Positions 14,748 to 16,773 of a stretch of 64,000 nucleotides of DNA are shown piece by piece. The position numbers were made by a program, and so were the translations under genes. Under the pieces are notes generated by a model. It saw nothing but the letters and a program-made list of their open reading frames with translations. It ran no database searches and was not told where the DNA came from. The stretch comes from an uncultured virus (IMG/VR IMGVR_UViG_3300009419_000009) (lineage: Duplodnaviria; Heunggongvirae; Uroviricota; Caudoviricetes): IMG/VR virus record IMGVR_UViG_3300009419_000009, positions 1-64,000 of that record. The stretch is one strand, 5' to 3'. Each line of letters starts with the position of its first letter. Position 1 is the stretch's first letter.

Positions 14748-14909
14748 ACCATATGGAAACACACTAGTGAGCCAGTCTAACGCAGCCATCGCAACTTTGC
14801 AAGTCGTTTCCAACTTGTGTATCGTCTTTCTGGGCGAGCTGTATGTGTAGAGCTCCGCAAGTTCTCAATGCAATCGCTTGCAAGGACAACTAGTATGTTT
14901 TCATATGGT
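14748..14909 (-). ncRNA. Conserved-stalk hairpin RNA, copy 4
   Basis: ACCATATGAAAACATACTAGT...ACTAGTGTGTTTCCATATGGT terminal stem; begins in the ACCA of tRNA-Lys(UUU). Confidence 0.6.
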
Positions 14910-14981
14910 AGAAGCAGTGGGACTCGAACCCACAACTATCCGGTTAAAAGCCGGGTACTCTAGCCATTGAGTTATGCTTCC
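14906..14981 (-). tRNA. tRNA-Lys(UUU)
   Basis: CCGG-CTTTTAA-CCGG, CCA. Confidence 0.95.
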
Positions 14982-14984
14982 ATA

Positions 14985-15060
14985 TGGTCCCTGCGGTCAG
15001 GCTCGAACTGACGACCAGCGGATTAAGAGTCCGTTGCGCTACCAACTGCGCCACACAGGG
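14985..15060 (-). tRNA. tRNA-Lys(CUU)
   Basis: CGGA-CTCTTAA-TCCG, CCA. Confidence 0.95.
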
Positions 15061-15120
15061 TTGTACGTATTGTTTGATTTTACGTGCCAACCCTAGACCA
15101 TACGGATGCCTAGAGCGACA

Positions 15121-15141
15121 CTAGAGTTTACCTCGTTTCAT
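15121..15141 (-). CDS. Minigene/leader peptide MKRGKL
   Basis: AAGGAG SD (15148-15153) 6 nt before ATG AAA CGA GGT AAA CTC TAG. Confidence 0.6.
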   Translation of the reverse strand: MKRGKL

Positions 15142-15164
15142 GTCAATCTCCTTGATTAAATAAA

Positions 15165-15357
15165 ATGCTCTGCGAACCCCGGTGGTAATTATACCGTATC
15201 AGACCTTTGGAGTCATCACGCACGGCCTCCACCCACTTCCCGACGGGTTCCGTTGTCGCATTGCCAGCGGCCTTTCGGTAGGAAGACTACCACCCTTGGC
15301 TATCACACCACTTCTCATCGTGCGGGTCACACTATCTGCTGATTAGGCAGAACGTTC
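15165..15357 (-). ncRNA. Putative structured ncRNA (~190 nt), family unknown
   Basis: GC-rich non-coding block; long-range CGCACG/CGTGCG and GGTGGTAGT/ATTACCACC complementarity. Confidence 0.55.
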
Positions 15358-15417
15358 TAGCTACAGGACACTTGTGTTGTTTAAGCCTGAGCACGGATGC
15401 AAGGCTCCTCTAAAAAT

Positions 15418-15890: not shown

Positions 15891-16773
15891 GGAGGACTGA
15901 GAATACATCTCTCCCATAAGCACCTCAAGCATTATTGTACACCTTGCGAGCGTACTTTCTCTTGACTTCCACTCGGGTCCTTGCGGATCTCCTAGTCTGC
16001 TTACAGTATCGCCGTTTTTAACGTCAAGCAGTAGACGTGTCATCATATGCTATTCTGCGGATTCCATTCCGTTAGCCTTGCGAGCTATTCAGGTGCGCTA
16101 ACACCTTACGAACCCCCCTCCACAAACTAATGTCACCTTGCGAGCTTCATTAGACTTGATTCACTTGCGTGTCAAGTATTAGATACTTTTCACATATGAC
16201 CGAGGCAGTCTTTGCGTTTTTGTAATGATAGTTGGGATTTGAACCCGACTGCATCCAGCTTAAAAGGCTAGCGTTCAACCATTGAACTTTATCAACCTAC
16301 CGTGATGAGCTACCTCTGTTGCTATATAATCTTTTGGACTACATAATACAACTCACCACATACCTTTCCTCTTGCGGAGTAATCAGTGATGTTTCACGAC
16401 CAGTGTCCTGCTTCAAAACAGTCCACCACCCATTAACATTGCACACGAGCCCTTGGGTGCAACCCCTCGAACCAATATACTACCCTTTCTCATACCTGTT
16501 GACAAGTTGGTTTTGTATGGAAGTCAGCACCACCTGTTACTTTTCATGCACCCTGGTTCCCTTACGGGCCAGTCGATACACATTCTTCCCCATACACTTG
16601 CTTCACAGTTACAACCACCGGTCTTATCAGTGATCGCTACCTTGCGATAGTGAGCAGGCTTGTTTACATGAACCATCTCTGGCGCAGGAGTGTAGGACTC
16701 ATCTGCTTTGGGTAGGTCACCCTACTTATTCTTCGTAGACGGCAAGCCGCCTACAGGACAATAAACTGCCCCG
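15887..16773 (-). ncRNA. GOLLD-like giant structured RNA (~890 nt)
   Basis: No credible ORF; at least 7 CGCAAG tetraloop-type motifs; long-range helices 16763-16773/16201-16211 and GTGGAGG(~16116-16122)/CCTCCAC(3' end); size and phage tRNA-cluster context fit GOLLD; not confirmed by CM search. Confidence 0.7.
16225..16296 (-). other. tRNA-Lys(UUU)-like element embedded in GOLLD-like RNA
   Basis: D-arm GTTC/GAAC, CTAGC-CTTTTAA-GCTGG, T-loop TTCAAAT, short TGATA/TATCA acceptor, no CCA. Confidence 0.7.

What the first reader, a model, noticed from the sequence alone, without database searches (positions are those of the whole stretch)
14985..15153. MKRGKL minigene and a two-state switch masking the 5' end of tRNA-Lys(CUU)
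Seen: strong SD plus ATG AAA CGA GGT AAA CTC TAG, ending 60 nt before tandem tRNA-Lys(CUU) and tRNA-Lys(UUU). Hairpin A (15106-15120 with 15085-15101) starts right after the stop. Hairpin B (AGGGTTG..ACGTA, 15081-15094, with TACGT.CAACCCT, ~15057-15069) uses the 3' arm of A and pairs with nt 1-4 of the tRNA acceptor strand. Inference: a ribosome at the stop blocks A, so B forms and the tRNA is masked; stalling at Lys codon 2 lets A form and frees the tRNA for RNase P. tRNA-Lys is the known PrrC target.
Basis: partly seen in the sequence, partly recalled or inferred. Interest (0 to 1): 0.8.

Follow-up and report, generated by a model that had tools for sequence, protein, structure and literature searches.

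The report
Lysine-codon leader switch before phage tRNA-Lys
A tiny translated reading frame with two lysine codons, followed by two competing RNA hairpins, sits in front of the lysine tRNA genes of many uncultured large phages and looks like a ribosome-operated switch that hides or frees the ends of that tRNA, a kind of control not described for tRNA genes.

Summary
On the minus strand a strong SD (15153-15148), ATG AAA CGA GGT AAA CTC TAG (15141-15121), hairpin A (15121-15084) and hairpin B (15094-15057) precede tRNA-Lys(CUU) (15060-14985) and tRNA-Lys(UUU). The same module occurs in at least 167 distinct versions in uncultured phage contigs and always precedes tRNA-Lys, never one of 759 other tRNAs. 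The mini-ORF varies (60 versions, 21/24/27/30 nt) but stays in frame. Only Met, Lys at codon 2, AAA as the penultimate codon and TAG are constant. Both hairpins share one segment and both covary with it (0 of 10000 permutations each). B pairs with tRNA nt +1/+2 (153 and 129 of 155), and tRNA nt +3 covaries with the leader. No U-tract follows B (0 of 155), so B is not a terminator. Folding gives two near iso-energetic states. Masking UAG plus 7 nt turns A off (0/108), turns B on (105/108) and breaks the acceptor stem. My best reading is trp-attenuator logic in which the terminator is replaced by helices that mask the tRNA ends, so tRNA-Lys is released when ribosomes stall at Lys codons. Translation, RNase P control and any link to defence are inferred, not shown. 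There is no Rfam family, no cultured phage match and no published precedent in my searches.

The parts
15188..15216 (-). promoter-like site ATGACT-17 nt-TATAAT upstream of the leader
   Evidence: Consensus scan, 10 of 12 matches. TATAAT and the 5' UTR after it are conserved in the 3 closest relatives. Function is not shown.
15148..15153 (-). Shine-Dalgarno AAGGAG, 6 nt before the ATG
   Evidence: Read. An SD-like 4-mer lies at -16..-4 in 107 of 108 unique relatives. Mean duplex with a 9-nt anti-SD is -7.3 kcal/mol against -2.2 for shuffled sequence.
15121..15141 (-). mini-ORF ATG AAA CGA GGT AAA CTC TAG (MKRGKL)
   Evidence: In frame in 114 of 114 instances found with an anchor that ignores the ORF, and in 114 of 114 found with a pattern that leaves the frame free. 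There are 60 distinct versions of 21, 24, 27 or 30 nt.
15136..15138 (-). Lys codon 2 (AAA; AAG in some relatives)
   Evidence: Invariant Lys at codon 2 in all ORF versions.
15127..15129 (-). penultimate Lys codon AAA, the proposed decision codon
   Evidence: Invariant AAA in alignment A1. Always followed by one sense codon plus TAG before hairpin A. With this codon in the A site, the first pair of A lies 11 nt downstream of the first P-site nucleotide (inference using PMC7282821).
15084..15121 (-). hairpin A (segments 2:3): GUGUCGCUCUAGGC with GGUCUAGGG(U)UGGCAC, loop 15107-15099
   Evidence: RNAalifold. The count of structure pairs gives 87.6% of cells paired against 21-50% when slid, 7 of 14 pairs with changes on both sides, and 101 such cells against 47.8 in shuffles, 0 of 500. 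Cognate against swapped duplex energy is -15.3 against -11.2, 0 of 10000.
15096..15100 (-). UGGUC in the 3' half of A, complementary to the tRNA 3' end GACCA (14989-14985)
   Evidence: TGGT[CT] is present in 150 of 155. It pairs with the last 8 nt of the tRNA in 89 of 108 masked-state folds. No covariation is possible because both sides are invariant.
15057..15094 (-). hairpin B (segments 3:4): lower stem AGGGUUG with CAACCCU (includes tRNA nt 1-4), upper stem ACGUA with UACGU
   Evidence: In the MFE. Register count on 155 instances: +1 paired in 153, +2 in 129, position -1 AU 69/UA 57/GC 9, tRNA +3 GC 56/UA 38. Overall 66.6% paired against 27-44% slid and 59.2% shuffled, 0 of 500. Cognate against swapped is -10.3 against -8.1, 0 of 10000.
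14985..15060 (-). tRNA-Lys(CUU), with C1-G72 and encoded CCA
   Evidence: ARAGORN and Rfam tRNA at 62.7 bits. C1 and a 3' GACCA occur in 154 of 155 relatives.
14906..14981 (-). tRNA-Lys(UUU), 3 nt after the CUU tRNA
   Evidence: ARAGORN and Rfam tRNA at 67.3 bits. The same CUU-then-UUU pair is seen in 28 of the 31 loci scanned.

Best explanation
This is a ribosome-operated RNA switch in the leader of the phage's tRNA-Lys genes. It is built like a classical leader-peptide attenuator, but its output is masking of the tRNA ends rather than a transcription terminator. The leader has a strong SD and a 6-9 codon ORF whose only constant codons are Met, Lys at position 2 and AAA as the penultimate codon. 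The TAG stop is itself the first base pair of hairpin A. Segment 3 (the 3' arm of A) can pair instead with segment 4, which is the last leader bases plus tRNA nt +1 to +2/+4 (hairpin B). At the same time the leader's UGGUC can pair with the tRNA 3' end GACCA. In state A the tRNA folds and has a single-stranded 5' leader. In state B the acceptor stem is pulled apart and both ends are buried. Inferred dynamics: a ribosome waiting for Lys-tRNA at either Lys codon leaves A closed, because with the penultimate AAA in the A site hairpin A sits exactly at the mRNA channel entrance. A ribosome that decodes both Lys codons and reaches TAG unwinds about 6 pairs of A, which frees segment 3 so that B forms. 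Poor decoding of Lys codons would therefore release tRNA-Lys for 5' processing, presumably by RNase P, and good decoding would hold it back. What is shown here is the conserved anatomy, the coding-type variation, the covariation of A and B, and the specificity for Lys. What is inferred is translation itself, ribosome positioning, RNase P as the regulated step, and the physiological trigger.
For: Linkage to Lys: a tRNA-Lys follows in 156 of 160 instances and in 114 of 120 matches of a second scan. The module precedes tRNA-Lys 44 times and no other tRNA. An SD plus mini-ORF with at least 2 cognate codons is found for 45 of 90 Lys tRNAs against 1 of 759 others. Coding signature: instances are in frame in 114 of 114 and 114 of 114, while chance matches of the same frame-free pattern are in frame in 7 of 24. 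There are four length classes, all multiples of three, and 60 ORF versions with synonymous changes; Lys makes up 129 of 345 sense codons. An SD is present in 107 of 108. Switch: A and B both covary with the shared segment. The two global states differ by -0.94 +/- 3.16 kcal/mol, with 49 of 108 within 2 kcal. Masking UAG plus 7 nt changes A from 97/108 to 0/108 and B from 10/108 to 105/108, and the 7-bp acceptor stem survives in 1/108. Geometry: the bacterial mRNA channel holds 11 nt downstream of the first P-site nucleotide, and hairpins placed 11-12 nt downstream hinder A-site tRNA binding (PMC7282821, passages read). Here the first pair of A is 11 nt downstream when the penultimate AAA is in the A site. 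Output plausibility: a synthetic hairpin that sequesters the tRNA 5' leader blocks RNase P in vitro and in E. coli (PMC7897497, abstract and passages). No U-tract follows B in 0 of 155, so B is not a terminator.
Against: There is no direct evidence of translation or of an effect on processing. The RNA-library contigs that cover the leader cannot prove transcription, ends or strand. The sensor codons are AAA, which the adjacent CUU tRNA cannot read, so any feedback must go through tRNA-Lys(UUU) or be feed-forward. ATGAA, AAA and TAGTGTC are invariant at the nucleotide level, which could also reflect RNA-level constraints. AAA as second codon is generally favoured for expression (recalled). The SD-AUG pairing with segment 2 (1:2) that would complete the attenuator shows no covariation (1795 of 10000). 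B is weak in some types (-3.7 to -5.3 kcal/mol) and in the 12 of 167 leaders that precede G1-type tRNA-Lys(UUU). Predicted default states differ: the A-type is more stable in only 67 of 108, and the window's own sequence prefers the B-type by 3.1 kcal/mol. ViennaRNA energies for tRNAs are rough. Single-sequence folding z-scores are not significant.
Confidence: 0.6

Rival explanations
1. The ORF is translated and toggles A and B, but it does not sense lysine decoding. The Lys codons are there for efficient initiation or termination, and the switch simply couples tRNA-Lys maturation to overall ribosome availability or to the timing of transcription.
For: The SD, frame and A/B evidence applies here too. 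The adjacent tRNA has anticodon CUU and cannot read AAA. Favourable effects of AAA as second codon and of a basic penultimate residue are recalled, not tested.
Against: It does not explain why the module is found only before tRNA-Lys (44 against 0 for other tRNAs; 45 of 90 against 1 of 759). It does not explain why inserted codons are often extra Lys codons (Lys is 129 of 345), or why the spacing from AAA to hairpin A is invariant.
Confidence: 0.13
2. The switch is real, but its output is not RNase P access. State B may instead trigger decay or cleavage by another RNase, act on transcription (Rho or pausing) of the downstream tRNA array, or block 3' end use or aminoacylation.
For: UGGUC pairing with GACCA buries the 3' end as well (89 of 108). 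tRNA-Lys(UUU) starts only 3 nt after that 3' end. In 3 of 33 contexts the leader lies within 35 nt of an upstream tRNA, inside a polycistronic precursor.
Against: There is no terminator-like U-tract (0 of 155) and no terminator call at this place. B ends exactly at the RNase P site and includes tRNA +1/+2. That is the arrangement shown to block RNase P in a synthetic system (PMC7897497).
Confidence: 0.14
3. The mini-ORF is not translated. The element is an RNA-only sensor, for example one that binds tRNA-Lys itself in a T-box-like way, with an AAA triplet presented to the anticodon and UGGU pairing with the ACCA end, or one that binds a protein.
For: AAA and UGGUC are invariant at the nucleotide level. 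UGGUC is complementary to the tRNA 3' end. A small hairpin inside the ORF places AAA in or next to its loop in many versions (seen; not tested formally).
Against: There is no T-box or other Rfam match, and the leader is about 100 nt, too short for a Stem I platform. The SD is kept in 107 of 108 although its sequence varies. The ATG is invariant, the frame is kept across four lengths, and changes are of the synonymous type. Chance matches are in frame in only 7 of 24.
Confidence: 0.08
4. This is a chance combination of an SD, a short ORF and hairpins in a tRNA spacer.
For: Single-sequence folding is no better than shuffles (z -1.30 and -0.60).
Against: There are 167 distinct conserved versions, always before tRNA-Lys, with covariation in two helices.
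Confidence: 0.01

Closest known systems
Ribosome-mediated transcription attenuators of amino-acid operons (trpL, hisL, pheL, leuL, thrL)
   Same: Both have an SD-led short leader ORF enriched in codons for the amino acid concerned. Both have a stop codon next to segment 2 and overlapping alternative helices 2:3 and 3:4, with a possible 1:2. Both use the same three-way logic (no translation, read-through to the stop, stalling).
   Different: The 3:4 helix is not a terminator (no U-tract, 0 of 155). Its 3' arm is the tRNA's own 5' end. The regulated gene is a tRNA, not an enzyme operon. The ORF has only 6-9 codons. The element is in phages. The 1:2 pairing is not supported by covariation.
Synthetic RNase P riboswitch (Ender et al. 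2021, PMC7897497)
   Same: A hairpin that sequesters or exposes the single-stranded 5' leader next to the tRNA decides whether RNase P can cleave.
   Different: That device is engineered and is driven by a theophylline aptamer. This one is natural, apparently driven by a translating ribosome, and also engages tRNA nt +1 to +4 and the 3' CCA end.
T-box riboswitches
   Same: Both are tRNA-specific cis-regulatory leaders with competing helices, and both have a UGGN-type element complementary to the tRNA NCCA end.
   Different: There is no Rfam T-box match and no Stem I. This element has an SD, ATG and conserved frame, sits before a tRNA gene rather than an aminoacyl-tRNA synthetase or transporter gene, and is about 100 nt long.
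Translational attenuation leaders of erm and cat genes
   Same: Ribosome stalling in a very short leader ORF remodels downstream hairpins.
   Different: There, stalling is induced by a drug and the nascent peptide, and the output is exposure of the SD of a downstream ORF. Here the peptide sequence is not conserved and the output is a tRNA.
Phage lambda bar minigenes
   Same: Both are SD-led ORFs of a few codons in a phage genome.
   Different: bar minigenes act through peptidyl-tRNA drop-off (recalled). They have no conserved switch helices and no fixed position before a tRNA gene.

Membership tests
Ribosome-mediated (leader-peptide) transcription attenuator | Short leader ORF with a ribosome-binding site and start codon | tested here: met
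   SD in 107 of 108. ATG is invariant and the ORF is in frame in 114 of 114.
Ribosome-mediated (leader-peptide) transcription attenuator | Regulatory codons cognate to the regulated amino acid or tRNA | tested here: met
   Lys at codon 2 and AAA as the penultimate codon in all versions. Lys is 129 of 345 sense codons. The downstream gene is tRNA-Lys.
Ribosome-mediated (leader-peptide) transcription attenuator | Mutually exclusive helices that share one segment (2:3 against 3:4) | tested here: met
   A and B both covary with the shared segment. The two states are near iso-energetic.
Ribosome-mediated (leader-peptide) transcription attenuator | 1:2 helix involving the leader ORF region | tested here: inconclusive
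   Pairing is possible (-8.2 against -4.4 kcal/mol for shuffled) and is predicted in 97 of 108 B-type folds, but it shows no covariation (1795 of 10000).
Ribosome-mediated (leader-peptide) transcription attenuator | The 3:4 helix is an intrinsic terminator (GC-rich stem followed by a U-tract) | tested here: not met
   None of 155 have 5 or more T in the 8 nt after B, and the longest T run is 3 or less. No terminator-like call at this place.
T-box riboswitch (RF00230) | Match to the family covariance model (Stem I, specifier loop, antiterminator) | tested here: not met
   No T-box hit at E up to 1 in 13 kb or at E up to 10 in 391 nt.
T-box riboswitch (RF00230) | UGGN element that pairs with the tRNA NCCA end | tested here: inconclusive
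   UGGUC is complementary to GACCA and pairs with it in 89 of 108 masked-state folds. Both sides are invariant, so covariation cannot be tested.
Any Rfam 15 family | Covariance-model match over 15061-15160 | tested here: not met
   Searches gave only two chance-level snoRNA hits (E 8.6 and 9), and these lie elsewhere in the spacer.
tRNA (RF00005), for the two downstream genes | Cloverleaf model match and anticodon | tested here: met
   ARAGORN calls Lys CUU and Lys UUU. Rfam tRNA scores are 62.7 and 67.3 bits.
bar-type toxic minigene | Toxicity through peptidyl-tRNA drop-off when peptidyl-tRNA hydrolase is limiting | not testable with these tools
   This is a phenotype, not a sequence feature.

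The most novel reading that the evidence does not exclude
This is a natural ribosome-actuated 'RNase P switch' that works as an on-demand counter-defence circuit. When host tRNA-Lys(UUU) is destroyed by anticodon nucleases (PrrC- or PARIS-type), ribosomes stall at the leader's AAA codons, hairpin A stays closed, and the phage's own tRNA-Lys pair is unmasked and matured. When lysine decoding is normal, the precursor is held in the masked state. Hairpin A would double as a brake on A-site tRNA binding at the decision codon, sharpening the response.
Probability: 0.25. Interest if true: 0.95.

Novelty: new variant of a known kind. Interest (0 to 1): 0.85.

Why it matters
Leader-peptide attenuators are textbook regulators of amino-acid operons. 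None is known to control a tRNA gene or to act by masking tRNA ends. Control of RNase P access by a leader hairpin has so far been shown only in a synthetic device (PMC7897497). If the model holds, it shows that phages regulate their tRNA supply in response to the decoding state of the cell. It would link that regulation to the tRNA most often attacked by host defence nucleases: PARIS cleaves host tRNA-Lys and a phage tRNA-Lys rescues infection (PMC11464382). It would also offer a compact natural part, about 100 nt, for codon-specific sensing. The element is abundant in freshwater-type viral metagenomes and absent from cultured phages, so it marks an unstudied group of tRNA-rich jumbo phages.

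Tried and rejected
Single-sequence thermodynamics gave z -1.30 (121 nt) and -0.60 (357 nt), neither informative.

BLAST against 50,697 cultured phage records found no match: megablast with 1 kb, blastn with the 357-nt spacer, and blastn with the commonest leader type at E up to 1.

The genome-contig scan returned 28 hits. 24 are chance (7 of 24 in frame). 4 are real and lie on MAG contigs with 4-20 tRNAs (bins named Haliscomenobacter, Crocinitomicaceae, Bacteroidetes, Polynucleobacter). Binning of phage contigs is unreliable, so I name no host.

The intrinsic-terminator reading of B is rejected. The T-box reading has no model match. The 1:2 helix shows no covariation. Pairing of the A loop with the 3' strand of the upper B hairpin is marginal (cognate -4.06 against -3.52, 378 of 10000).

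Analogous cognate-codon leaders before other tRNAs were found in 1 of 759, probably by chance.

RNA evidence: contigs of 4 metatranscriptome runs cover the leader. One 181-nt contig spans 14946-15126, and three run from the leader into relatives' tRNA-Lys. Contigs cannot show transcription, ends or strand, and DNA may be present in such libraries.

Literature searches for a precedent found none. The library holds only open-access papers and preprints.

Full report
**Context.** The window comes from a virus record. It encodes a tail sheath, a UvsX-like recombinase and a large terminase. The terminase is about 54% identical to those of PA5oct-type Pseudomonas jumbo phages and about 51-53% identical to those of the Sinorhizobium and Agrobacterium jumbo phages Phosso and Atu_ph07. 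Between 9335 and 18915 it carries 33 tRNA genes, all on the minus strand, and a GOLLD RNA at 15894-16359 (198 bits). The finding lies in the 357-nt gap between tRNA-Asp (15492-15418) and tRNA-Lys(CUU) (15060-14985).

**The observation.** Read on the minus strand:
- AAGGAG lies at 15153-15148.
- The ORF is ATG AAA CGA GGT AAA CTC TAG at 15141-15121.
- 60 nt of leader follow, then tRNA-Lys(CUU). After 3 more nt comes tRNA-Lys(UUU) at 14981-14906.
- Hairpin A is slightly larger than stated. It starts with the G of the stop codon (15121) and ends at C15084.

On this sequence alone nothing is significant: the z-scores are -1.30 and -0.60.

**Conservation.**
- The exact 21-mer occurs in 45 IMG/VR stretches.
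- In 30 of the 31 loci I scanned with ARAGORN, a tRNA-Lys starts 60-63 nt after the stop (28 CUU followed by UUU, 2 UUU directly). In L037 ARAGORN made no call at that place. The rest of the tRNA order is shuffled among these contigs.
Of 118 distinct sequences, 4 were unrelated coding-region matches. All other 114 had TAG and an in-frame ATG-AAR start.
- Over 160 instances, 153 are followed by tRNA-Lys(CUU), 3 by tRNA-Lys(UUU) and 4 are unresolved. The spacing is 59-66 nt in 155 and 86 nt in one.
- A second scan left the frame free (120 rows, limit reached). It gave 114 matches followed by tRNA-Lys (101 CUU, 13 UUU), all in frame. One apparent exception arose because my regular expression took an upstream ATGAAA.
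- Of the 6 matches without a tRNA call, 5 are clearly the element and in frame, and one is a chance match out of frame.
- The same pattern in bacterial and archaeal genomes gave 24 chance hits, in frame in 7 of 24, and 4 real ones, all in frame and inside tRNA arrays on MAG contigs.
- The combined set has 167 distinct full instances.
- No cultured phage record holds the element. No Rfam family matches it.

**Is the minigene a gene?**
- There are 60 distinct ORF versions, with lengths 21 (29 versions), 24 (20), 27 (8) and 30 nt (3).
- Only Met, Lys at codon 2 (AAA, sometimes AAG), AAA as the penultimate codon and TAG are constant. Everything else varies, for example MKRGKL, MKRSGKR, MKRAKR, MKVGKP, MKHTGKQ, MKDTAKQ and MKLDKI.
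- The same peptide is encoded in several ways.
- Lys codons make up 129 of 345 sense codons.
- An SD-like motif lies at the right distance in 107 of 108, although its sequence varies.
- The phage's ordinary genes use SDs moderately (12 of 25), and the leader's SD is among the strongest.

This is the pattern expected if codon identity and frame matter and the peptide does not. TAG is invariant because its G pairs with the invariant C of GGCAC at the base of hairpin A.

**The switch.**
- On alignment A1 (110 of the 111 unique references; L077 was left out), hairpin A has 87.6% of cells paired, against 21-50% when partners are slid. 7 of 14 pairs change on both sides, and there are 101 such cells against 47.8 in shuffles (0 of 500).
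- MAFFT does not align B well, so I used two alignment-free tests. The first compared duplex energies of cognate against swapped segments on one representative per shared-segment type. With 30 types, A was -15.96 against -10.71 and B was -9.30 against -6.88. With 41 types, A was -15.26 against -11.17 and B was -10.34 against -8.06. No permutation of 10000 reached the cognate value in any of these tests.
- The second test used the fixed register of B relative to TGGCAC and tRNA +1. In 155 instances tRNA +1 is paired in 153 and +2 in 129. Position -1 shows AU 69, UA 57 and GC 9. tRNA +3 itself covaries with the leader (GC 56, UA 38). Overall 66.6% of cells are paired, against 27-44% slid and 59.2% shuffled (0 of 500).
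- One segment therefore covaries with two different partners. Those two pairings cannot exist together, which is what a two-state element looks like.

**What state B does to the tRNA.** I folded the leader plus tRNA for 108 instances.
- With nothing masked, A forms in 97 and the acceptor stem has at least 5 pairs in 97.
- With UAG plus 7 nt masked, A forms in 0 and B in 105, and the full acceptor stem survives in 1.
- 106 of 108 of these tRNAs begin with C1 and end in GACCA. The leader's nearly invariant UGGUC (150 of 155) pairs with that end in 89 of 108 masked-state folds.
- With the SD and ORF included, the A-type and B-type states differ by -0.94 +/- 3.16 kcal/mol, and 49 of 108 are within 2 kcal. 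In the B-type state the SD-AUG region pairs with segment 2 in 97 of 108. That 1:2 pairing shows no covariation, so it stays a hypothesis.
- No U-tract follows B (0 of 155), so the output is not intrinsic termination.

**Mechanism (inferred).** The bacterial mRNA channel holds 11 nt downstream of the first P-site nucleotide. The ribosome unwinds three pairs per step. Hairpins placed 11-12 nt downstream hinder A-site tRNA binding (PMC7282821, passages read). In every version the order is AAA, one sense codon, TAG, with the G of TAG as the first pair of A.

When the penultimate AAA is in the A site, hairpin A therefore starts 11 nt downstream of the first P-site nucleotide. It is intact, at the channel entrance, and placed where it should slow Lys-tRNA binding. 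Two more steps bring TAG into the A site and open about six pairs of A. That frees the UGG of segment 3 to nucleate B.

Stalling at either Lys codon keeps state A, with the tRNA folded and its 5' leader single-stranded. Full decoding gives state B, with both ends buried. A synthetic hairpin that sequesters a tRNA 5' leader blocks RNase P in vitro and in E. coli (PMC7897497, abstract and passages). RNase P access is therefore the most likely regulated step, but I could not test it.

**Open problems.**
- The sensor codon AAA is read by tRNA-Lys(UUU), not by the adjacent CUU tRNA. The circuit would therefore report on the UUU tRNA pool and release the CUU/UUU pair.
- How the UUU gene 3 nt downstream is affected is unknown.
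- In 12 of 167 instances the leader directly precedes a G1-type tRNA-Lys(UUU), and there B is weak.
- Predicted default states vary, and the window's own sequence prefers the B-type by 3.1 kcal/mol.
- RNA-library contigs from four studies cover the leader and bridge it to tRNA-Lys. Contigs cannot prove transcription or processing.

**Comparison and novelty.** The element works like a trp-type attenuator up to the output step and fails the terminator criterion. It shares the leader-sequestration principle with an engineered RNase P riboswitch. It is not a T-box. It is specific to Lys: an SD plus mini-ORF with at least 2 cognate codons precedes 45 of 90 Lys tRNAs against 1 of 759 others.

Host tRNA-Lys is a known target of defence nucleases, and a phage tRNA-Lys can rescue infection (PMC11464382, passages read). 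That gives a plausible but untested reason for sensing lysine decoding. My searches found no published precedent (open-access papers and preprints only).

**Verdict.** I rate it a new variant of a known kind, with high interest.

Noticed in passing
window 15894-16359 (-): A GOLLD RNA (RF02032, 198.2 bits, E 4e-55) lies inside the tRNA array. It has an embedded tRNA-like match at 16223-16296 (Rfam tRNA, 44.4 bits) that ARAGORN did not call.
   Followed up: partly
window about 15213-15365 (-), upstream of the leader: A block of about 150 nt is almost invariant among the window and its 3 closest relatives, while its flanks diverge. Its 15213-15311 part has the highest contig depth in all 4 metatranscriptome runs. 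No Rfam family matches it. It may be an unknown abundant small RNA.
   Followed up: partly
L047:194-270 (-): One related phage contig carries a tRNA with anticodon CUA, which ARAGORN labels 'Pyl'. An amber suppressor could read through the leader's invariant TAG and change the switch late in infection.
   Followed up: no
window 14985-15060 (-) and relatives: The leader-associated tRNA-Lys(CUU) genes start with C1 (C1-G72) and encode their CCA in 154 of 155 versions. The 12 tRNA-Lys(UUU) genes directly behind a leader start with G1. The unusual C1 seems tied to pairing with the leader's GG.
   Followed up: partly
window 14890-14904 (-): A second tiny frame, ATG AAA ACA TAC TAG, starts 1 nt after the CCA of tRNA-Lys(UUU) and has no SD (read). 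It is probably chance.
   Followed up: no
IMG/VR contigs: The element occurs on very large viral contigs (for example 524,565, 349,369 and 270,181 bases) with dense tRNA arrays of up to 30 tRNAs in 6 kb. The DNA holders found for the window are mostly labelled freshwater metagenomes.
   Followed up: no
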